From: Naegleria gruberi
Taxonomy: Eukaryota
Length of the DNA stretch: 64,000 nucleotides
NCBI GenBank assembly: GCA_000004985.1
Contig: GG738902.1
Reading direction: 5' to 3' (one strand)
Shown here: positions 5,078 to 40,850 of the stretch, piece after piece
Numbering within the stretch: the first letter of the stretch is position 1
Layout: each line of letters opens with the position of its first letter
Notes under the pieces: model-generated
Told to the model about the DNA's origin: nothing
The model's input: the letters and a program-made list of their open reading frames with translations, nothing else
The model's database searches: none
Made by a program: the position numbers and the translations under genes

Positions 5078-6553
5078 ATGAAAATTATTGAACAAGAAGA
5101 TATGTTAGAAGAAGAACTTGTTGTAATCCATTTGGATACTTCCATTTTCAGTCCACTCCTCAAATCAACAACAGACAACCAATCCAAATTATTAAAGCAC
5201 TGGTGTATGGAGGCAGATCTATTCAAATATTCCATCATTACACCTCTGGAATATTGTATTGAACAACCAAACCTTAATGGACAGTATTGCAAAATTAGTA
5301 AAGCTCCCTATGTATACTCTAAGAAACTACCATTGGAAGAGGAGGGATCGAAATGGATATGGGGTATGGATTCGATATTTGTACCAGATTATGTTGGTTC
5401 AAAACATGGCTCCTTATTGAGTGTTAAACAATCAACAAATAACGATGAAATAATTTGTGAAAAAGAAACTGAAAGATCAGATGCAACTATTCCAGTTGTT
5501 GTAGAGATGAGAAACAATAGAGAGTTTATGATGGAGAGTGTACAGAAAAATGGTTTATTACTTTATTATGCTCATCCTGATTTACTTTTTGATCAAGAAT
5601 TATTATTGGAAGCCATAAGAAATAATGTATCTGCTTTCCAATATGTTCCATATAATCTCAGAAGAGATGAACAATTCTTAAAAAGAGCTATTGAAAAATG
5701 TGGAGATGTGTTTTTATACCTTACTGGAGAGTGGAGAAAGAGAAATGATTTATACGAAATATCTTTGAGAACATGTGAAAACAAGCTAAAACTATTCGAA
5801 AGATTGGATCCTTCAATTAGAATGAATTATGCACCCAGTATGGTATCAAACTATTGGAGAGCAATCTATTTCCTCAACCCTTCAGACTCTCGATACTCTC
5901 AACTAATCCAGATTATTCTCAATTCGAATCAAGTTTCTGACTCTGAATTAATCAATTCAAATTTAATAACCAACAGGAAAGATTTATGGAAATATCTCGA
6001 TATTTCTTATAGGGCACTTATCTTGGCTAAAAGAGAGTGCATTGATAATGAAGCAATCATTAAGGCATTGAGAAGTAATATGATCATTTCCAACTATCTA
6101 TCGTATTACCAATGGAATGCAATCAAGGAAAATCATTCTCTTATAATGGAAATAATTCAAAATCCAATAGAATTAACAATTGAAGCTGCAACATTTATTA
6201 TTAAAAATTCTAATCGGGATAATGTCAGAGCACTCGTAAAAAGATATCCTTTTCTAGCAGAAAAGGTTACTGAGGTGAAAATGATGTTTGATCCTTATAT
6301 TCTTAGATATTTGCCGTCAAACAAACAATATGAAACTATTCGAAAGTGTGCCAAACTAATAATGGATGAAAAAGAGTATTTCGAAACAGTAGGATATTAT
6401 TTCCAAGGAAGCAGTGCCCTCGCCTGGATTTTAAGAGAAAGATTTACCATATCACATCCTGGCTTGGTCATTCCTTACCATAGATTTGGAAAAAAACTCG
6501 ACTGTCAACCAATTTGTTGGGATTTTGAGTTGTGGTATGAGAGTATCAACTAA
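5078..6553 (+). CDS. DUF4116-repeat protein
   Basis: ATG after an A-run. It carries repeated approx. 35-aa units of the form YAxxxLRxDxEFxLxAIxxNxxAFQYVP, typical of DUF4116 repeats. A paralogous repeat block sits in the gene at 56540..58231. Confidence 0.55.
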   Translation: MKIIEQEDMLEEELVVIHLDTSIFSPLLKSTTDNQSKLLKHWCMEADLFKYSIITPLEYCIEQPNLNGQYCKISKAPYVYSKKLPLEEEGSKWIWGMDSIFVPDYVGSKHGSLLSVKQSTNNDEIICEKETERSDATIPVVVEMRNNREFMMESVQKNGLLLYYAHPDLLFDQELLLEAIRNNVSAFQYVPYNLRRDEQFLKRAIEKCGDVFLYLTGEWRKRNDLYEISLRTCENKLKLFERLDPSIRMNYAPSMVSNYWRAIYFLNPSDSRYSQLIQIILNSNQVSDSELINSNLITNRKDLWKYLDISYRALILAKRECIDNEAIIKALRSNMIISNYLSYYQWNAIKENHSLIMEIIQNPIELTIEAATFIIKNSNRDNVRALVKRYPFLAEKVTEVKMMFDPYILRYLPSNKQYETIRKCAKLIMDEKEYFETVGYYFQGSSALAWILRERFTISHPGLVIPYHRFGKKLDCQPICWDFELWYESIN

Positions 6554-32847: not shown

Positions 32848-34049
32848 TTAATGTTGAGTTTGTTGGGTTGGGTTTTCAGTCAATTCTGCCAATTCGTTTT
32901 CAAGTTGAATAACCTTGAGTTCGTGTTGGATAAACATGAATTGTTCATCAATGTTAGCAAATTTGTTTCTTTCTCTGCTATCCAAAACTTTGAGTAAATC
33001 CAATTTGATGAGCTTTGGTGTACTGTCACTCTTAGAGAGGTTTTGAATCTGAGTCATAATTCCATCCATGAGTGTTTTAGTATTTGGTGAGTCAATACTG
33101 CAGCCAACTTCTAAAAGGAATTCACAGACAAGTTTGAGATTCAGCTCTGTAGGATTTTGTAATAAAGAAGAAATAATTAAAAATGCAATCTTTCTATCTA
33201 AAACATGATAAGAAATCAACTTGGCAACAAGTTTCAATGTGTTGGATTTCTTCTGGAAAGATTTAAACTCTTCTTCTAATTCCTTTTCCTTATTTTGAAC
33301 AATGAATTCTTCCTTAAATAATTGCTGACACTTGGTAGCAATCTTCTTCTTGATTGAGACGATCACATCTTGGGGAAGTCTAGATACATTCTCTTCGAGT
33401 TGCTCATAGAATAAACTTGCAATAGTTCCAGCAATGCCTCGATACAAAACCTTCTCTATCAAGATGTCAACCCACAAACTTTGCATATTTTCAGAATTCT
33501 TAAAGAATGAAAAGTTCTTTAACAACTTGTGTCTAGTATTTTCATAAATTTCTGGAGTGAGTCTGGTGGAAGCATAAACCTTGTCATAACTGGATAAGAG
33601 TTTGGACAACAAGATTTTGATAAATTCAATAGTTTCCTGTTCTGTTCTGTGTTTCTTTCTCTCGTTTTGTGGCTTATGTTGCTTGATATTTCTTCTTTCG
33701 TACTTTCTATCATTTTGAAATGTTTCCGATTGACCTTGTTGTGCTGGTTGAGATACTGGTTTGGTTTCACTCTTTCCTGATACTGGTCGTTGATTAGTGT
33801 TAGCAGTACTGTTTGTTGGAGTTGCTGTAGTTGTTGTGGTAGTAACATGTTGTACAGGAGGAGCATTAGTGACACTTGTTGTTGAAGATCCTGTTGTTGG
33901 AGTGTTTTCAGTAATGGTTGTTGTGGCAGGTTTTGAAGATGTTGCACTAGGCTTAATTGGTGAAGTTGTAGATGGTGGTGATTGATGATGATCCTTAAGG
34001 TGAGCAACATTTCTCTTGTGGTGATGCTTGTTGCTTGGATGGCTCTTTT
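32848..34049 (-). CDS. Exon 2 of a helical-repeat (MIF4G-like) protein gene, with a Thr/Ser/Pro-rich linker then a helical C-terminal domain
   Basis: The open frame runs continuously from 34049 to the stop at 32848. It differs from the track ORF 33519..34010, which is the Q/L-rich alternate frame. The C-terminal 250 aa show an amphipathic helical-repeat pattern compatible with a MIF4G-type fold; that domain call is weak. Confidence 0.45.
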
Positions 34050-34132
34050 CTGTTAGTTATTTGAATATTAATGATCAATATTATTTAACAATTAATACAA
34101 AATAAATAATTTGATCAATTATTAAAACCTAC

Positions 34133-34400
34133 CCGATGATGCATCTGTTGCTGATACAGCAGTAGTTGTTGTTGCCGATTGTGTTGGTGTTGTATTACTT
34201 GTTGATGGTGTTGTTGTTTTTGTGGCAGTGGTAGTACTACTTTGAGCCGATGATGATGGTTTAGACAGGGATTTCATGTATTGTTCATACTCCCTTTGAA
34301 ATTTATCTTCATCATAATCATCATCAATGACTCCATCATCATCCCAATCACCATCATCGTCTTTAACATCGACCCATTCCTCTTCGAACTTTTTACTCAT
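34133..34400 (-). CDS. Exon 1 (acidic DDDGDWDDDG N-terminus) of the same gene
   Basis: Minus-strand G|GTAGGT donor after 34133 (phase 1) and an AACAG acceptor before 34049 restore the frame with no intervening stops. Confidence 0.45.
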
Positions 34401-34533: not shown

Positions 34534-34577
34534 TGGCGCCAATTTAAAACTACAATTTTTATCAATTTTGGCGCCAC
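34534..34577. promoter_or_regulatory. Two copies of the palindromic TGGCGCCAA/TGGCGCCAC motif in a bidirectional promoter
   Basis: GGCGCC is at 34535..34540 and 34570..34575 inside a 183-nt AT-rich divergent intergenic region. The identical 9-mer TGGCGCCAA recurs at 36238. Confidence 0.4.
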
Positions 34578-34583
34578 AATACA

Positions 34584-35408
34584 ATGGAAAAAATAATTGA
34601 AATTAAGGGTGCTGTCATCAGCTCACCAATTTTTGATACTCAAGGAGGTTTATGTTTCTCTTCAATAAATACTGGAGATGTTTATTTAGTGCCGCAAGGA
34701 GGAGAATCGGATCAGACAATTCATTTGACAAATACAAAAGGCTCACCAACGGGAGTTGCTTTTAACTATGTTGATGGAAGTATTCTTGTTGCTGATTCAG
34801 CAAATCAGGCAATTTTAAAAGTAAATCCCGAGAATAATAATCAAGTTCAAATAATAAGAGGTGATTTTAGAGGAAAGCCATTTATTGGACCAAATAATGT
34901 AATTGTAGATTCTAAAGGAATGATGTATTTTTCAGATAGTGGACCATTAGGTGAAACATCTATTGAGAATCCAAAGGGATCGGTTTATTGTCTTAGTACG
35001 GATGGAAAGATTTTGAAATCACTTGCTTATGAATGTTTGGCATATCCTAGTGGCCTTGCATTTTCACCTCATTCAGAAGATGTAATTTATGTGGCAGAGA
35101 CAATGAAAAATCGTATCTTGAGATTTACCCATATTAATGGAGCATTCTATTGCTCTGTTTTTCAACAATTGAGTGGAGGATTTGGACCAACTGGAATATG
35201 TGTTGATGATGAAGGAAATATCTATGTAGCAATGTACGAATTCAAACAAGTTTCTACTGAAGGAAGAATTCTTGTACTGAGTGAGGCTGGAGTTTTAAAG
35301 AAGGAAATTATCCTTGAGAATATTAGTGAAATTACTGGAATAACCTACAAGAGAGGATTTTTATACATTACAGAAGGCAACAGTGTTTACAAGTATGAAT
35401 TGGATTAA
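34584..35408 (+). CDS. SMP-30/gluconolactonase/LRE-like six-bladed beta-propeller protein
   Basis: GPNNVIVDSKGMMYFSDSG and repeated G-x-x-f-D/N blade motifs. 274 aa. Confidence 0.6.
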   Translation: MEKIIEIKGAVISSPIFDTQGGLCFSSINTGDVYLVPQGGESDQTIHLTNTKGSPTGVAFNYVDGSILVADSANQAILKVNPENNNQVQIIRGDFRGKPFIGPNNVIVDSKGMMYFSDSGPLGETSIENPKGSVYCLSTDGKILKSLAYECLAYPSGLAFSPHSEDVIYVAETMKNRILRFTHINGAFYCSVFQQLSGGFGPTGICVDDEGNIYVAMYEFKQVSTEGRILVLSEAGVLKKEIILENISEITGITYKRGFLYITEGNSVYKYELD

Positions 35409-35453
35409 ATTTCAAAAAAAAATATTTAATTACATATTATACAAGAATAAAGT

Positions 35454-36011
35454 TTAACACTTATTAACATTGTAACCCAAAGGTTGTTTGAGGACAGTTT
35501 CTCTAAAACCAAAGGCATTGAAATATCCTTCAATATCAAAGGCAGCACATCCTTCACCCTTAATATCAAATCTAATGTTTCTAACTTGAACACAGAAACC
35601 AATATCTAACAAGAAATCCAAACAAATTGGATCAAGATTAACAAGTCCCATATCAAACTCCTTATCAAAGAGAGTTTTACCTCCAGTTTCAACCTTAAGT
35701 TGAACCTTTTGTCTAGTCAAATAAGCGACCATAGTAACAGTTCCAGAAACTTTGATCTTCTTGAGAACCAATTTCTTCTCATATGAAACATCACAAATAA
35801 AAGTCTTGGTAAGCAAATCAGTATTAACAAATCTACAAGTAGCTCCGGCACCTCTAACATTTCCTCTCAATTTACCAATAAGTTGACGGGCCATTTCTTC
35901 TTCAGAAAAAGCAGCAGGGGCAACAGTGAGTGAAGCCTTTTCCTCAGCTCCACAAACAACACCAATCATCAAACAAGCCAACAAGGCAACCAACAACAGA
36001 TAAGCTCTCAT
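35454..36011 (-). CDS. Small secreted Cys-containing protein of unknown function
   Basis: Signal peptide MRAYLLLVALLACLMIGVVCG. 185 aa. Seven Cys in the mature part. Confidence 0.45.
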   Translation of the reverse strand: MRAYLLLVALLACLMIGVVCGAEEKASLTVAPAAFSEEEMARQLIGKLRGNVRGAGATCRFVNTDLLTKTFICDVSYEKKLVLKKIKVSGTVTMVAYLTRQKVQLKVETGGKTLFDKEFDMGLVNLDPICLDFLLDIGFCVQVRNIRFDIKGEGCAAFDIEGYFNAFGFRETVLKQPLGYNVNKC

Positions 36012-36237
36012 TTTTTTAATAAGATTTCGTTAGCACTACTGCGCTCCTTGATAAAATTAAGCTGGCGTTGTTTTTAATTGGTGGGGTGATAATTGCCTGA
36101 TAACAAGCAAAGATTTGCTCCACCTGTTTGTAAGACCGTACTGTGTAGTAAAGTTTTTTAGTTGTTTTATCAAAGTTAAAGTACTTTCAAATGGTTTAGT
36201 TGACTATTTGTGCTTGCAAAACCATTCTAATGGATAG

Positions 36238-36246
36238 TGGCGCCAA
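36238..36246. promoter_or_regulatory. TGGCGCCAA motif in a second bidirectional promoter
   Basis: It matches the 34534 copy exactly and lies between divergent genes (35454..36011 minus; 36299..38020 plus). Confidence 0.4.
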
Positions 36247-36298
36247 AATCCAGTTCTAGCAAACATTCGAACGTTAAAAAAAATATTTGAACAAAAAA

Positions 36299-38020
36299 AT
36301 GAAGAAACGAAAACAATCAACCTTGTTCTCGGCAAATCAATCGACAACACCCAATAAGAAGAAGAATAAATCCATTACTTCTCAATCCCCTGCCTTTGAT
36401 AATGTTGTGGTTGATCTGATTGATAGTAGCGATGATGATGAAGAAGAAATTGTTTCACCTTCTCCTCCGATGAGAACAAATCAAATCATTGAAATTATGG
36501 ATGAGAATGATGAGAGATGTAAATTTACAATTCATATTGAAAATAAGACCATTCAGAGTATTAAATTGGATACCAGCAAGGCAAAGATTGTAAAACAGAA
36601 AACCATTACAAACTATTTTAAAAAATCAGTCAAGTTGGAAAAGTCAACTTTTAATTCATATCTTGTGGAGGCTCCTTCTAAGGATTGGTTTGAAAAGAGG
36701 AGGAATGTTTTGGAAATAAGGGATGTGGAATCTAATTTTAAGAGTACTGATGGTGGTCCACTAGTACCAGTTTTTCAAGTCATTGGAAATAACAGCTCAA
36801 CTGTGAATATTAGATCGAGTGATAGAAAGTTGACATTTAAATTGGATACTCTGATTGAATGTGGTGATAATTCAATTTATCATCATGTAACTGTGCCAAT
36901 CCAAAATAAGAAGACACACTCTGTTTGTGTTTCGAATAATTTATCCAATAATAGTGAGAAGAAGATAATACCAAAATTATCCCTTTCTTTCCTTAAATCA
37001 CTGCTCCAGAAGAATACTCGTTTGGGGAGAGCAGAATCGTGCGTCAGAATAGCATCCCTCATGATTTACAAATATTCATTCTTGGAATTTCTGAGAAGGA
37101 TACAGATTATCATTGTGGAAGATTGTCTAATGCATCCGTGTGCTCATTTGATTACTTGGTTAATGATTAATTATGGAAGTAAGGAAGCAACTACACCACA
37201 ATTGGATAATAACTTTTCCACAGCAATTATACCAAAGATATTTATTGATGCATGTTTACAAATTGTTTATGATATTGCCAAGGTAAATTATAGAGAGGAT
37301 TTGTCAAATTGTGAAATGTTTATTTCACAAGATGAAATGAATGCCTTGTTTGGAAGCAAATCTGCTCAATTTTCAGAATTTGAAGAAGATTTGTGTAGAT
37401 CCCTATTTATTAGATCATGTTTTGGAGGAATGAAGGGTGATATTGTACTTTTACATAGTCAATGCAGTCTATGGCTTTACAGGTTTTCAAATAGAGTTTC
37501 TCAGCCACCAAATGAGAATTCAAAAGAATACAACATACCTGAAATATTCCAAAGCATGCTTAATCCTGCAATTGAATATGGTTCACCATGGTTCAAGTAT
37601 TTATGTTCGTTGTACTATTCAGAGAAGAGAGATTTGAACTTTCTTGTATCCTTCCTAAAATCAAAACCTAGTGTGGATTTGTTATGTGAGGATATTGTAC
37701 TTTCAGCCGTTGATTTTCATTGCTTTCCAGTTCTATTAGGGAAGTGTTTGGAAAAATTTAGAGAGCTATCCCCAAATTCTGATATACAAGACCAACTATT
37801 AATGGATGCCCTTAAAAAGATTATTTGGCATAAGGCATCAAAGCTCAACATTCGAACATTTATTGCAACCCTTCCAAAGGAAGAACCGTTCGAAGATACT
37901 GATTGGTATTCAATGGAATGGGATAAATCTCTTGATCCATTTGAGGAGGAAATTTTCCAAGTGATAGAACCTCATTTAAGGGAGATAGAGGCTGATACAT
38001 TCAGACAGCAATGTTTATAA
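36299..38020 (+). CDS. Lys-rich nuclear-type protein with an N-terminal canonical PIP box (PCNA-interacting motif)
   Basis: QKTITNYFKKSVK fits Q-x-x-I-x-x-Y-F with flanking lysines. The N-terminus is Lys-rich (KKRK) with an acidic DSSDDDEEE patch. The C-terminal 350 aa are uncharacterised. The track start at 36287 is TTG; ATG at 36299. Confidence 0.5.
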   Translation: MKKRKQSTLFSANQSTTPNKKKNKSITSQSPAFDNVVVDLIDSSDDDEEEIVSPSPPMRTNQIIEIMDENDERCKFTIHIENKTIQSIKLDTSKAKIVKQKTITNYFKKSVKLEKSTFNSYLVEAPSKDWFEKRRNVLEIRDVESNFKSTDGGPLVPVFQVIGNNSSTVNIRSSDRKLTFKLDTLIECGDNSIYHHVTVPIQNKKTHSVCVSNNLSNNSEKKIIPKLSLSFLKSLLQKNTRLGRAESCVRIASLMIYKYSFLEFLRRIQIIIVEDCLMHPCAHLITWLMINYGSKEATTPQLDNNFSTAIIPKIFIDACLQIVYDIAKVNYREDLSNCEMFISQDEMNALFGSKSAQFSEFEEDLCRSLFIRSCFGGMKGDIVLLHSQCSLWLYRFSNRVSQPPNENSKEYNIPEIFQSMLNPAIEYGSPWFKYLCSLYYSEKRDLNFLVSFLKSKPSVDLLCEDIVLSAVDFHCFPVLLGKCLEKFRELSPNSDIQDQLLMDALKKIIWHKASKLNIRTFIATLPKEEPFEDTDWYSMEWDKSLDPFEEEIFQVIEPHLREIEADTFRQQCL

Positions 38021-38066: not shown

Positions 38067-38715
38067 TTACATGTTGATCTTTTGTCTGATTGGAATGACA
38101 TGGTTAGCAATAGTGAGACCAATAAAAATGGCCACACCAACCAAGAACACATCCAAGAAGAAATTCATTCCAGCCTGAGTATTATTGGTATAAATCAAAG
38201 AGGCCATACCTCTATATGACATACTACCTGGACTAAGCATTAACACAGCAACCCCAGCAACTAAAACAGGGGGACAGTGAGTAAAAATAGTAAAAATATT
38301 TGCCATTAAACCAACTGCAACAGCTGCAAGTACTGTAGAAATTTCAATTTTAAGGAATGAAAGAGAAAAATTCAACAGGTGAGCAGTTAAACTAGTTCCT
38401 AAAACAGCAACAATAACCTTTGGATCAGAAGGAACTTTTCTTGAAATCATTGTTGCTAAACTCAATGACAATACAACAATAATTCTCAACCAAATAGGAA
38501 TTGCTAATCTTTCTATATCCTTATCCTCACTTTCTGATAGTAGTGGAATTTGATTAACAATACCTGCTGTAAATATGAGGCCAAATCCTAATTTCAAAAT
38601 AATACTGAAAGCATTGGTAAGTCTTATTACTCCTGCTAGAGAGGCACCTATCGAAATTTCAGATAAGGCCACTGTAATGATTGACCCGGGTAAGAACTGA
38701 TACGATGTGCACAAA
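38067..38715 (-). CDS. ThrE-family (putative threonine/serine exporter, DUF3815 part) membrane protein, exon 3
   Basis: Multiple TM helices. The frame is joined to exon 2 across a 44-nt intron (38716..38759) with a minus-strand GTAAGT donor and TAG acceptor. Confidence 0.6.
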
Positions 38716-38759
38716 CTAGTTAAATTGTAAGAATATTAATCGATAATGCTAAAACTTAC

Positions 38760-39333
38760 GTAATCAATGAAACTGAAATATAATACTTGTCGAACAAGAC
38801 CCATTTCATGAAAATACCAACCAATCCACCAATCAAACTAGCAACAGCTGGAATAATCGTCGAGAATATTGGCATTCTCGAGAAGAAAAAGTTAACAACA
38901 CCAATAATTAATCCAATGAGAAGACAAGTAAACACCTCAGGTAAAGTTCCCTTCCATAATAATACAAACAATCCAGGTGTTAAAAAGTGGAAGAATAAAT
39001 TAATCATTGGATGGGAATAAATAACTGGTTCTTGAATGATCTTATTGATCTCAGCTTGAGCTTCATCAATTGTGAAATGTCCATGAGAAATATCACTGGC
39101 AACTTTATCAAGCTTTGCCAATTTATCCATATTTACAGTTTGTCCTTCTAATTTGATAAAATAAGTAAACATATTGTCATTCGATTCTTTTGGTCTATGT
39201 CCTAATCCAATCCAAATTCCATTAGTATTTACAGAAAAGTATGCATCTATACCGTAATACGACGAAATTAAAGTAAGGTGGTATTCCACTTTGTAAGAAC
39301 TCAATCCATATATTGAGAGAGCGTACGCCAGAT
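38760..39333 (-). CDS. ThrE-family protein (DUF1212 part), exon 2
   Basis: DUF1212-like sequence (...LEGQTVNMDKLAKLDKVASDISHGHFTIDEAQAEINKI) followed by TM helices. A GTATGT...CAAG intron (39334..39373) joins it to exon 1 in phase 1. Confidence 0.6.
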
Positions 39334-39373
39334 CTTGAAACTTGTCAAAAAATTATCCAAACAGAAAACATAC

Positions 39374-40850
39374 CAATAAGCAATGAGTGTACCTTCTTTC
39401 TATCGTCTGTCGATAAATCCTTATATAAAACTCTTGATTGATTCTTTTCTGATTGTCCTGTGAAAAAGTATTTGAATGAGCCAATAACTTTTTGTAATTT
39501 AGTCTTTGGTTTAGACACAGGCTCCTCCTCTATGGAGGGAATCCTCAGCATTGCTGTATCATTACCATCCTCTCCACTGCAACTAGATTCAGTTTCCACA
39601 GATACATCAGCTCCATCTATCAATTCCTCCTCATCACCTCCTGATTGCATTTGCTTTTCCTTTGCCTTGAGTAATTTTCTCTGATACCTAAGAGTGTTTC
39701 TGAGCTTTTTGAAATTGTAGGCACGCAAAGTTCTGGTTTGAGACGGAAGTAATACTCTTGGTGTTTCCAGAACAGATGCCAGCTTTTTTGTAGCTCTCTT
39801 AATGAAAGATGGTTTTTCTTCCAAGTTTTTCGATGAGAATATCATTGGCATTCGTTCTTTCAATGAGACACCTGTTTTCTTTTCAATTTGTCTTGCAAGA
39901 TTGTGAGCTGAATTGAACAGAGCACCTATTGCAGAATTTCCTCCATTTGTGAGTTCTTTTTCAGCCAACTTGCGCATATATTCATCCTCCAAAATACTTG
40001 GCTGCATAGTTGGATCCAAAACAAGAGATGAAATAGATTCCATTGAATCTGATGGCCTTAATAAATAACCAGGAATGGTTGGCAAAACAATTCCATCAAT
40101 AGATACTTCCTCCTTTCCAGAAAGTTGCAAAGTTGGTGGGATATGTAACAATCCTTCATCATCCACAGTTGCATCCACAGAAATTGTTTCATCATATGGT
40201 TGCAATTCATCCAATTCTACTTGTATAGGGGTTGAAGGTTTACTCTGATTTCGTTTAAGAATGATTGATCCATGTTGTTCACCAGTTTTCGATCCTCCAA
40301 AACTGAATTTAGCAGCCGATGATGTCACTGCTTCCTTTTGTAAATTATTGTAATTAGAATTTGGAATATCAACATTTAAATTTGGCTTGCTCCTAAATGA
40401 TGCAGGTGTAGTAGCCATAGTAAAATGTGATTGATTATTTGCATGATGATTTAAATTATGAATGGTTGGAGAACTACTCTCGGAAGAATCCTTTGAAAGA
40501 GCAACACCTTTAATATTCGATCGGGTTGATGTATTAATTGTTGTTTCATCATAGTGAGTTGCTGATGATTCTTCCACTGGTGTAGAGTATGGATTAACAA
40601 CCTCTTCATAAGTAGATGATGATGATTGTAGAGGATTCGTAAATACCAACAAATTAGCTTCGGAAGTTGCTGAAGACTGAGGATTTTGATGAGTCGTATT
40701 ATTTGCATGATTAGCATGCTGATGATGATTTGCTTCAAAAACCTGATGTAGCAGAGATGATCCTCCTTTGTTCTTGCTATTCATAGTAGCACTGCCCGTT
40801 GTTGGTGTTTTTGTGGGTTGAGCAGAAATAGAGTTTGAGTTTGCGCTCAT
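39374..40850 (-). CDS. ThrE-family protein, exon 1 (long Ser/Thr/Asn/His-rich cytosolic N-terminal region)
   Basis: ATG at 40850. Low-complexity but continuous ORF. It ends at a minus-strand G|GTATGT donor. Confidence 0.5.

What the first reader, a model, noticed from the sequence alone, without database searches (positions are those of the whole stretch)
34534..36246. Palindromic TGGCGCCAA motif recurring in two bidirectional promoters
In a roughly 70% AT genome the GC-only hexamer GGCGCC occurs at 34535, 34570 and 36239. All three copies sit in short intergenic regions between divergently transcribed gene pairs. They share the extended context TGGCGCCA(A/C).

This is a candidate cis-regulatory element, such as a transcription-factor site or a core element for divergent promoters.
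Basis: seen in the sequence. Interest (0 to 1): 0.5.

Follow-up and report, generated by a model that had tools for sequence, protein, structure and literature searches.

The report
E2F binding sites in Naegleria promoters
The recurring TGGCGCCA motif is real and is most likely a set of binding sites for the cell-cycle transcription factor E2F in two promoters of the amoeba Naegleria gruberi, a well-known kind of element that has apparently not been described in this distant branch of eukaryotes.

Summary
GGCGCC and TGGCGCCA each occur exactly three times in the 64-kb window (expected about 0.5 and 0.1), all in two short divergent spacers. The window is Naegleria gruberi nuclear DNA.

Two copies share the oriented 12-mer TTTTGGCGCCAC, which matches the E2F consensus (TTTSGCGC/GCGSSAAA; E2F1 SELEX TTTGGCGCCAAA). 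N. gruberi encodes E2F, DP, an E2F7/8-type DEL and RB. The recognition helices of its E2F and DP are identical to those of human E2F4 and DP2 in the solved DNA complex.

In four other heterolobosean loci TTTGGCGC occurs exactly once in 8-15 kb, each time at the 5' end of an E2F-family gene. These are DEL in N. fowleri, N. lovaniensis and an N. gruberi-like contig, and E2F in Willaertia. Across 192 kb all 7 sites lie at gene 5' ends, and the motif ranks first of 560 same-composition 8-mers for non-ORF occurrences.

At the focal locus conservation is mixed: present in Willaertia, probably in a metagenomic relative, absent in N. fowleri, N. lovaniensis and Acrasis. The flanking genes are not classic S-phase genes.

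Verdict: E2F-family sites, a new member of a known kind, of modest interest. Binding and cell-cycle regulation are inferred, not shown.

The parts
34534..34541 (.). Copy 1, TGGCGCCA in the context ATATGGCGCCAATTT. The minus strand reads AAATTGGCGCCATAT, which resembles the E2F1 SELEX variant ATTGGCGCCAAA. It lies 42 nt upstream of the SGL ATG and 133 nt upstream of the MIF4G ATG.
34566..34577 (+). Copy 2, TTTTGGCGCCAC, a full match to the E2F consensus TTTSGCGC. The 8-mer ends 7 nt before the SGL ATG and starts 168 nt from the MIF4G ATG. It is 35 bp centre to centre from copy 1.
36237..36248 (-). Copy 3, TTTTGGCGCCAC on the minus strand (GTGGCGCCAAAA on the plus strand, matching GCGSSAAA). The 8-mer lies 53 nt upstream of the ATG of the 573-aa gene and 226 nt from the ATG of the 185-aa gene.
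34584..35408 (+). SGL/NHL beta-propeller gene (274 aa), a candidate target of copies 1 and 2. It is a conserved neighbour of the 573-aa gene family in all heterolobosean loci examined.
36299..38020 (+). 573-aa gene, 100% identical to an N. gruberi predicted protein, and the candidate target of copy 3. It has no Pfam family. It carries a helical domain like the MgsA/RarA C-terminal domain but has no AAA+ module.
32848..34400 (-). 489-aa MIF4G-domain gene (exon 1 34400-34133, intron 34132-34050, exon 2 34049-32848). It shares the spacer with copies 1 and 2 and is an alternative or additional target. No orthologue could be retrieved.
35454..36011 (-). 185-aa gene with a signal-peptide-like N-terminus. 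It shares the spacer with copy 3 and is absent from all related loci. It separates the otherwise adjacent SGL and 573-aa genes.

Best explanation
The three TGGCGCCA copies are binding sites for winged-helix E2F-family factors of Naegleria gruberi. These are the E2F-DP heterodimer and/or the two-domain atypical E2F called DEL.

The GGCGCC core offers two back-to-back GCGC half-sites. The flanking T or A run gives the TTTSGCGC asymmetry of classical E2F sites.

By analogy with animals and plants, the sites would work as follows. E2F-DP bound there is held inactive by the RB pocket protein in G1 or quiescence. CDK phosphorylation of RB releases it, so the adjacent genes are switched on around G1/S. 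DEL, whose own promoter carries the same motif, later represses through the same sites as negative feedback.

The most likely regulated genes are the SGL/NHL gene (copies 1 and 2) and the 573-aa MgsA_C-like gene (copy 3). The MIF4G and 185-aa genes that share the spacers may be co-regulated.

Shown here: the motif, its statistics and location, the presence and conservation of the factors, and the recurrence of the motif at E2F-network promoters in related genomes. Inferred: physical binding, the RB/CDK logic, cell-cycle timing, and which flanking gene responds.
For: (1) Sequence. Copies 2 and 3 are TTTTGGCGCCAC. They are the only TTTSGCGC matches in the window and fit GCGSSAAA, the E2F-family consensus (PMC4862756). 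E2F1 SELEX motifs are ATTGGCGCCAAA and TTTGGCGCCAAA (PMC5449588).

(2) Non-randomness. There are 3 copies against 0.11 expected, all within 470 bp of promoter spacer.

(3) Factor. Fig. 2 source data of Medina et al. 2016 list NgruE2F, NgruDP, NgruDEL and NgruRB. Pfam confirms E2F_TDP plus CC-MB, E2F_TDP plus DP, a double E2F_TDP, and RB_A plus RB_B. NgruE2F and NgruDP align to the two chains of the human E2F4-DP2-DNA complex 1cf7 at E = 3e-25 and 1e-28. The segments [24 protein letters not shown] and KNIRRRVYDALNVLMA are identical. NgruE2F ends in EGVSDLF, like EGVCDLF in an animal E2F from the same file.

(4) Independent loci. TTTGGCGC occurs once per locus, always at the 5' end of an E2F-family gene. 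In N. fowleri DEL it starts 74 bp upstream of the ATG. In N. lovaniensis DEL it starts 88 bp upstream, with a TTTCCCGC at -232. In the N. gruberi-like DEL contig TTTGGCGCC ends 38 nt upstream of the mapped ATG. In Willaertia E2F it lies at +45 from the annotated ATG. E2F7/8 genes are known E2F1 targets (PMC3420931).

(5) Pooled over 192 kb. There are 7 sites against about 2.1 expected. None is in a gene body, although 77% of the DNA lies in ORFs. The motif ranks 1st of 560 same-composition 8-mers for non-ORF occurrences, 6 against a next best of 3.

(6) Focal locus. In Willaertia (27% GC) the only TTTGGCGC in 11.7 kb lies in the 298-bp divergent spacer between the SGL and 573-aa orthologues. 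A metagenomic relative has ...NNNCGCCAAAAG 19 nt upstream of its SGL ATG.
Against: No GGCGCC or TTTSGCGC exists near the SGL and 573-aa orthologues of N. fowleri or N. lovaniensis, or within 600 bp upstream in Acrasis. At the position homologous to copy 3 those species have CTTCCAA or GGTTCCAA.

The RB gene of a Naegleria relative has no such site.

Copy 2 ends only 7 nt before the SGL ATG, which is unusually close for an upstream element.

The loci used for point 4 were chosen because they encode E2F-network genes, so the pooled statistic is not drawn from a random sample. The N. gruberi genome itself could not be scanned. No binding or expression data were available.
Confidence: 0.8

Rival explanations
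1. The palindromic GGCGCC sites are mainly operators for the atypical two-domain E2F (DEL, E2F7/8-type) acting as an RB-independent repressor, rather than E2F-DP activation sites. This is a sub-variant of the main explanation, not exclusive of it.
For: N. gruberi encodes DEL with two E2F_TDP domains. A palindromic core with two half-sites suits a two-domain protein. The flanking genes are not typical S-phase activation targets. Animal E2F7/8 repress through E2F consensus sites (PMC3420931).
Against: Nothing in the sequence separates DEL from E2F-DP occupancy. Both recognise the same core, and the sites fit the E2F1-type SELEX motif exactly. The second DEL domain has a degenerate contact motif (TRRLND instead of RRIYD), so its DNA reading is uncertain.
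Confidence: 0.25
2. An unrelated, lineage-specific dimeric transcription factor recognises the palindrome TGGCGCCA, and the resemblance to E2F sites is coincidental.
For: The site is not conserved at the orthologous promoters of N. fowleri and N. lovaniensis. The flanking genes are not known E2F targets.
Against: In the related genomes the recurring element is the asymmetric TTTGGCGC followed by T, A or C, not the palindrome. It sits on E2F-network genes, as the E2F model predicts. The cognate E2F and DP recognition helices are identical to the human ones.
Confidence: 0.08
3. The three copies are non-functional: chance GC-rich palindromes, or the residue of a small duplicated promoter fragment.
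For: Copies 2 and 3 share 21 of 25 bases in inverted orientation, which could reflect a local duplication when the 185-aa gene came to lie between SGL and the 573-aa gene. The sites are absent from the N. fowleri and N. lovaniensis orthologous promoters.
Against: There are 3 copies against 0.11 expected, with none of 100 shuffles reaching 3. Copy 1 shares no similarity beyond the core. The same motif is placed independently at the orthologous spacer in Willaertia and at DEL/E2F promoters. It ranks first of 560 composition-matched 8-mers.
Confidence: 0.06
4. The motif is a general core-promoter element of bidirectional promoters in Naegleria.
For: All three window copies, and the Willaertia copy, lie in divergent spacers.
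Against: Only 2 spacers in a 64-kb window with several dozen genes carry it. In the N. fowleri and N. lovaniensis DEL loci it lies between tandem, same-strand genes.
Confidence: 0.02

Closest known systems
E2F/DP binding sites of animal and plant G1/S promoters (TTTSGCGC / GCGSSAAA, for example the overlapping inverted site of the DHFR promoter and the E2F1 SELEX motif TTTGGCGCCAAA)
   Same: The core is identical (TTTGGCGCC, with a palindromic GGCGCC) and the sites are promoter-proximal, within about 150 bp of the ATG. One spacer carries paired sites. The cognate E2F, DP and RB are present with identical recognition helices.
   Different: The organism is a heterolobosean amoeba (Discoba), where my literature searches found no described E2F sites. 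The adjacent genes (an SGL/NHL propeller, a MgsA_C-like protein, a MIF4G protein and a secreted protein) are not canonical replication genes. Binding and cell-cycle regulation are untested.
E2F1 to E2F7/E2F8 negative feedback loop in mammals (E2F sites in the promoters of the atypical E2F genes). The plant counterpart, DEL1 under E2Fb/E2Fc control, is cited from memory.
   Same: The DEL genes of N. fowleri, N. lovaniensis and an N. gruberi-like amoeba each carry TTTGGCGC within 90 bp upstream of the ATG, plus a conserved TCCCGCC element further upstream. The mammalian loop is described in PMC3420931.
   Different: This lies outside the window and is a by-product of the test. The feedback is inferred from site placement only.
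CDE/CHR tandem elements bound by DREAM/MuvB
   Same: There is a GC-rich E2F-like element followed downstream by a TTCGAA/TTTGAA-type hexamer in the promoter of the 573-aa gene (window 36266-36271 and 36286-36291). A CTCGAA/TTCGAA block is conserved in five species.
   Different: The spacing is 21 nt, not the canonical 4 nt (spacing recalled from memory). Most species have CTCGAA, which departs from TTYGAA. The presence of MuvB/LIN54 in Naegleria was not tested.

Membership tests
E2F-family binding site (E2F-responsive promoter element) | Sequence matches the consensus TTTSGCGC / GCGSSAAA | tested here: met
   Copies 2 and 3 are TTTTGGCGCCAC. The consensus comes from PMC4862756 and PMC5449588. 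Copy 1 (AAATTGGCGCCATAT) matches 7 of the 8 positions of TTTSGCGC and resembles the SELEX variant ATTGGCGCCAAA.
E2F-family binding site (E2F-responsive promoter element) | The genome encodes E2F and DP with an intact winged-helix DNA-binding domain and RRxYD contact motif | tested here: met
   NgruE2F, NgruDP and NgruDEL sequences are in the Medina et al. supplement. Pfam finds E2F_TDP, CC-MB and DP. The alignment to 1cf7 chains A and B shows identical recognition helices.
E2F-family binding site (E2F-responsive promoter element) | Promoter-proximal location, depleted from coding sequence | tested here: met
   All 3 window copies lie in 183-bp and 287-bp spacers. All 7 sites in 192 kb lie at gene 5' ends. 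The motif ranks 1st of 560 composition-matched 8-mers. The sample is limited and partly chosen.
E2F-family binding site (E2F-responsive promoter element) | Present at known E2F-network or cell-cycle genes of the same lineage | tested here: met
   It is present at DEL promoters in N. fowleri, N. lovaniensis and the N. gruberi-like contig, and at the 5' end of the Willaertia E2F gene. It is absent at RB in one relative (L013). Replication genes could not be retrieved.
E2F-family binding site (E2F-responsive promoter element) | Conservation at orthologous promoters of the focal genes | tested here: inconclusive
   Present in Willaertia. Probably present but half hidden by N in the metagenomic relative L006. 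Absent in N. fowleri and N. lovaniensis and in Acrasis. These species share only about 30-40% protein identity, so loss by turnover is plausible.
E2F-family binding site (E2F-responsive promoter element) | Physical binding by E2F-DP or atypical E2F (EMSA, ChIP, DAP-seq) | not testable with these tools
   No binding data for Naegleria were found.
E2F-family binding site (E2F-responsive promoter element) | Cell-cycle-dependent or RB-dependent expression of the adjacent genes | not testable with these tools
   No expression data were accessible here.
CDE/CHR tandem element | A GC-rich CDE followed after a 4-nt spacer by a CHR (TTYGAA) | tested here: not met
   TTCGAA at 36266-36271 lies 21 nt after GGCGCC. 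No CHR-like hexamer stands at a 4-nt distance from any copy. The definition is from memory.
MgsA/RarA/WRNIP1 replication-associated AAA+ ATPases (considered for the 573-aa protein) | AAA+ ATPase module with Walker A and B motifs | tested here: not met
   There is no Pfam AAA hit. In the AlphaFold model residues 1-157 are mostly low-confidence (pLDDT below 50), followed by a beta-rich segment and then helical domains.
MgsA/RarA/WRNIP1 replication-associated AAA+ ATPases (considered for the 573-aa protein) | MgsA_C-type C-terminal helical domain | tested here: inconclusive

The most novel reading that the evidence does not exclude
The sites mark a heterolobosean-specific branch of the E2F regulon. 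The branch is a conserved gene pair: an SGL/NHL propeller gene next to an uncharacterised protein with a MgsA/WRNIP1-type C-terminal domain. This pair would have been kept under E2F control from Willaertia to N. gruberi, even after it was split in N. gruberi, where each half has its own site. In that reading the 573-aa protein is a new S-phase or replication-stress factor. The TTTGGCGC sites in the DEL promoters would also show that the E2F to atypical-E2F feedback wiring predates the split of Discoba from animals and plants.
Probability: 0.3. Interest if true: 0.5.

Novelty: new member of a known kind. Interest (0 to 1): 0.35.

Why it matters
E2F, DP and RB proteins are inferred to date back to the last eukaryotic common ancestor. 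Their cis-elements, however, have been documented mainly in animals, plants and a few other lineages.

If these sites are functional, the E2F recognition code (TTTGGCGC) and at least one wiring feature, E2F sites on the atypical-E2F gene, are also kept in Discoba. That would give Naegleria researchers a ready-made cis-element to predict G1/S-regulated genes in an organism with almost no promoter annotation.

It would also point to an uncharacterised, conserved gene pair as a candidate cell-cycle-linked module.

It does not reveal a new kind of element. A specialist would find it expected rather than surprising.

Tried and rejected
- **Locus look-up of N. gruberi proteins.** Not on record, so no genome-wide scan and no direct look at N. 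gruberi replication-gene promoters was possible.
- **Homologue search with the full 489-aa MIF4G protein.** It returned only itself, probably because low-complexity words filled the candidate list. Conservation of copies 1 and 2 relative to that gene is therefore untested. tblastn found no MIF4G or 185-aa homologue in any fetched locus.
- **Foldseek of the 573-aa model against the PDB.** Nothing significant.
- **Literature.** Cao et al. 2010 did not sample Naegleria. The cilia-transcription review and the Physarum genome paper mention E2F and Naegleria separately and without relevance. A 2026 Discoba preprint gives only aggregate transcription-factor counts. One literature search failed on a term that was too short.
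- **Plasmodiophora orthologue (59% GC).** Uninformative, because GGCGCC is common there.
- **Larger repeat or transposon end carrying the motif.** Rejected. Beyond a 25-nt inverted similarity between copies 2 and 3, no extended repeat exists.
- **General core-promoter element.** Rejected because the motif is rare in the window.
- **CDE/CHR tandem element.** Rejected on spacing.
- **Second E2F variant TCCCGCC**, seen in the DEL promoters. Absent from the window.
Full report
**Observation.** GGCGCC occurs three times in the window, at 34535, 34570 and 36239, and nowhere else. 0.51 are expected from dinucleotide-preserving shuffles. The extended palindrome TGGCGCCA also occurs three times, with 0.11 expected and 0 of 100 shuffles reaching three. 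The next base is A, C and A, as reported. Window GC is 0.338. Both are the asymmetric 12-mer TTTTGGCGCCAC, on opposite strands (34566-34577 plus strand, 36237-36248 minus strand). No other site within one mismatch exists in the window.

**Source and genes.** The 573-aa ORF at 36299-38020 is 100% identical to a predicted protein of Naegleria gruberi on a 306-kb contig. So is the spliced 489-aa product of the minus-strand gene that starts at 34400 (exon 34400-34133, 83-bp GT..AG intron, exon 34049-32848). The window is therefore N. gruberi nuclear DNA.

Copies 1 and 2 lie in the 183-bp spacer between this MIF4G-domain gene (minus strand) and a 274-aa SMP-30/gluconolactonase/NHL propeller gene (SGL, plus strand, ATG 34584). 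Copy 3 lies in the 287-bp spacer between a 185-aa gene with a signal-peptide-like start (minus strand, ATG 36011) and the 573-aa gene (plus strand).

**What the motif is.** TTTTGGCGCCAC contains TTTGGCGC. That is the classical E2F consensus TTTSGCGC, and its complement fits GCGSSAAA, the E2F-family consensus quoted by Medina et al. (PMC4862756). High-throughput SELEX motifs for human E2F1 are ATTGGCGCCAAA and TTTGGCGCCAAA (PMC5449588). These two copies are the only TTTSGCGC matches in 64 kb. Copy 1, read on the minus strand as AAATTGGCGCCATAT, is a slightly weaker version.

**Does the amoeba have the factor?** The Fig. 2 source-data FASTA files of Medina et al. 2016 contain N. gruberi E2F, DP, DEL (an atypical E2F of the E2F7/8 type with two DNA-binding domains) and RB.

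Pfam confirms the domain content:
- E2F: E2F_TDP plus E2F_CC-MB
- DP: E2F_TDP plus DP
- DEL: two E2F_TDP stretches
- RB (the NCBI N. gruberi retinoblastoma protein): RB_A plus RB_B

The DNA-binding domains of NgruE2F and NgruDP align to chains A and B of the solved human E2F4-DP2-DNA complex (1cf7) at E = 3e-25 and 1e-28. The stretches that include the RRxYD contact motif are identical: [24 protein letters not shown] and KNIRRRVYDALNVLMA. NgruE2F also ends in ...GEGVSDLFL, like the EGVCDLF pocket-protein-binding tail of an animal E2F in the same file. The role of that tail is from my own knowledge. It is therefore reasonable to infer that the Naegleria proteins read the same DNA sequence.

**Is the motif used at expected targets in this lineage?** The N. 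gruberi assembly itself is not available for locus look-up. I therefore searched with a composite of the conserved cores of NgruE2F, NgruDEL and NgruRB and fetched five loci from relatives.

In each of four loci TTTSGCGC occurs exactly once, and always at the 5' end of the E2F-family gene:

| Locus | Length | Gene | Position of the site |
|---|---|---|---|
| L009 | 14.6 kb | N. fowleri DEL | TTTTGGCGCT; TTTGGCGC starts 74 bp upstream of the ATG |
| L010 | 14.5 kb | N. lovaniensis DEL | TTTTGGCGCA; starts 88 bp upstream, plus TTTCCCGCC at -232 |
| L011 | 13.4 kb, 30% GC | Willaertia magna E2F | ATTTGGCGCT, 45 bp after the annotated ATG |
| L012 | 8.1 kb | ENA metagenome contig, DEL 97-99.7% identical to NgruDEL | GTTTGGCGCC, the only GGCGCC in the contig, ending 38 nt upstream of the mapped DEL ATG |

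An alignment of the three DEL upstream regions also shows an invariant TCCCGCC block further upstream. [quoted passage not shown] The RB gene of a metagenomic Naegleria relative (L013) has no such site.

**Pooled test.** I pooled 192 kb of non-redundant heterolobosean DNA (the window plus ten loci). Of this, 22.7% lies outside ORFs of at least 100 codons. There are 7 TTTSGCGC sites against about 2.1 expected from first-order Markov simulations. Six fall outside ORFs. The seventh, in L012, is inside a spurious ORF extension but upstream of the true DEL ATG. None lies in a gene body.

As a control I counted all 560 8-mers with the same base composition. Pooled, they show no preference for non-ORF DNA (22.6%). 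TTTGGCGC ranks first for non-ORF occurrences, with 6 against a next best of 3, and one of the runners-up overlaps the same sites. The caveat is that four of the loci were chosen for their E2F-family genes.

**Conservation at the focal locus.** The SGL gene and the 573-aa gene family are neighbours in every heterolobosean locus fetched:
- N. fowleri, N. lovaniensis and a metagenomic relative (L006): in tandem
- Willaertia: divergent
- N. gruberi: separated by the 185-aa gene, which has no homologue elsewhere

In Willaertia (27% GC) the only TTTGGCGC in 11.7 kb lies in the 298-bp divergent spacer between the two genes. In L006 the sequence 19 nt upstream of the SGL ATG reads NNNNNNNNNNNNCGCCAAAAG, which is compatible with a half-hidden GGCGCCAAAA.

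N. fowleri and N. lovaniensis have no GGCGCC or TTTSGCGC anywhere in about 22 kb around the pair. Acrasis has none within 600 bp upstream. Plasmodiophora is too GC-rich to judge.

Conservation at the focal genes is therefore mixed. The proteins are only about 30-40% identical between these species, so site turnover is plausible, but this remains the main weakness. In N. gruberi each half of the split pair has its own site or sites. That fits selection to keep both genes under the same control, but it is also compatible with a small inverted duplication: copies 2 and 3 share 21 of 25 bases.

**The flanking genes.** None is a textbook S-phase gene. The 573-aa family has no Pfam domain. It occurs in Naegleria, Willaertia, Acrasis, Pelomyxa and Plasmodiophora, and as shorter metagenomic proteins.

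**Mechanism.** The best-supported reading (about 0.8) is that the three copies are E2F-family sites. E2F-DP and/or DEL bind the GGCGCC core with its T/A flank close to the start sites. RB would restrain E2F until CDK activity rises. DEL, itself under the same motif, would feed back negatively.

Shown: the sequence, statistics and placement of the motif, the existence of the factors and the conservation of their DNA-reading residues, and the recurrence of the motif at E2F-network promoters in relatives. Inferred: binding, the RB/CDK logic, timing, and which gene of each divergent pair responds.

The SGL and 573-aa genes are favoured because the motif follows that pair in Willaertia and probably in L006. 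The MIF4G and 185-aa genes are not found next to the pair elsewhere.

**Rivals.**
- DEL-only operators: a sub-variant that cannot be told apart here.
- An unrelated palindrome-binding factor: disfavoured, because relatives conserve the asymmetric TTTGGCGC rather than the palindrome.
- Chance or a neutral duplication: disfavoured by the statistics and the independent recurrences.
- A general bidirectional core element: rejected, because the motif is rare and also occurs in tandem spacers.
- A CDE/CHR tandem element: rejected on spacing.

**Novelty and interest.** This is a known kind of element. Two literature searches found no report of E2F sites or of any promoter motif in Naegleria, so it is best filed as a new member of a known kind. 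It extends the documented reach of the E2F recognition code, and probably of the E2F to atypical-E2F feedback wiring, to Discoba. It also flags a conserved, uncharacterised gene pair as a candidate E2F-controlled module. A cell-cycle specialist would find this expected rather than surprising, so I score interest at 0.35.

Noticed in passing
window 36262-36271 (ACATTCGAAC) and 36286-36291 (TTTGAA); L001 about 9950; L004 about 9961; L006 about 2822; L005 about 4976: A short block, (A)CAYTCGAA(C), lies 20-50 bp upstream of the ATG of the 573-aa gene family in five heterolobosean species, although the rest of the spacer has diverged. TTCGAA/TTTGAA resembles a CHR element, but the spacing from the E2F-like site (21 nt) is not canonical. 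It could be a start-site or initiator element, or a second factor's site.
   Followed up: partly
window 34584-38020; L001 8980-11827; L004 8982-11809; L005 2024-6680; L006 1970-4400: The SGL/NHL propeller gene and the 573-aa gene are neighbours in every heterolobosean genome looked at: tandem in four loci and divergent in Willaertia, where SGL is fused to a FAA_hydrolase domain. This suggests a functional link between the two products.
   Followed up: partly
window 35454-36011 (minus strand): A 185-aa gene with a signal-peptide-like N-terminus sits between SGL and the 573-aa gene only in N. gruberi. It has no Pfam hit and no homologue in any related locus. It is a lineage-specific insertion or a fast-evolving secreted protein.
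   Followed up: partly
   Followed up: partly
window 34565-34589 versus 36225-36249: Copies 2 and 3 share 21 of 25 bases in inverted orientation (ATTTTGGCGCCAC.AT.CA.T.GAA), more than the 12-mer alone. This may be a composite element or the trace of a small inverted duplication of the promoter.
   Followed up: no
L006 1931-1951: A run of exactly 12 N directly abuts CGCCAAAAG, 19 nt upstream of the SGL start codon, in the metagenomic Naegleria relative. The hidden bases decide whether this is a conserved GGCGCCAAAA site.
   Followed up: no
L009 about 5790-5800; L010 5769-5777; L012 3607-3616: The DEL promoters of N. fowleri, N. lovaniensis and the N. gruberi-like contig share a second invariant element, TCCCGCC (TTTCCCGCC in N. 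lovaniensis). It is the other classical E2F variant and lies upstream of the TTTGGCGC site.
   Followed up: partly
L011 11210-11217: In Willaertia an O6-alkylguanine-DNA alkyltransferase-like gene (Pfam DNA_binding_1) has TTTGCCGC, which fits GCGSSAAA, 46 bp upstream of its ATG. It may be another E2F-type site, this time on a DNA-repair gene.
   Followed up: no
L012 (ENA ERZ929261, contig k127_530710): An environmental metagenome contig encodes a DEL protein 97-99.7% identical to N. gruberi DEL, with the same neighbours (PABP and RabGAP) as in N. fowleri. An N. gruberi-group amoeba is therefore present in that sample, and it could serve for close-range promoter footprinting.
   Followed up: partly
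window 38067-39304 (minus strand): A ThrE-family (putative threonine/serine exporter) gene is split by a short intron of about 41 bp between 38714 and 38756. The long N-terminal low-complexity ORF at 39345-40850 probably belongs to the same gene, as in the 930-960-aa N. fowleri and N. lovaniensis orthologues.
   Followed up: no
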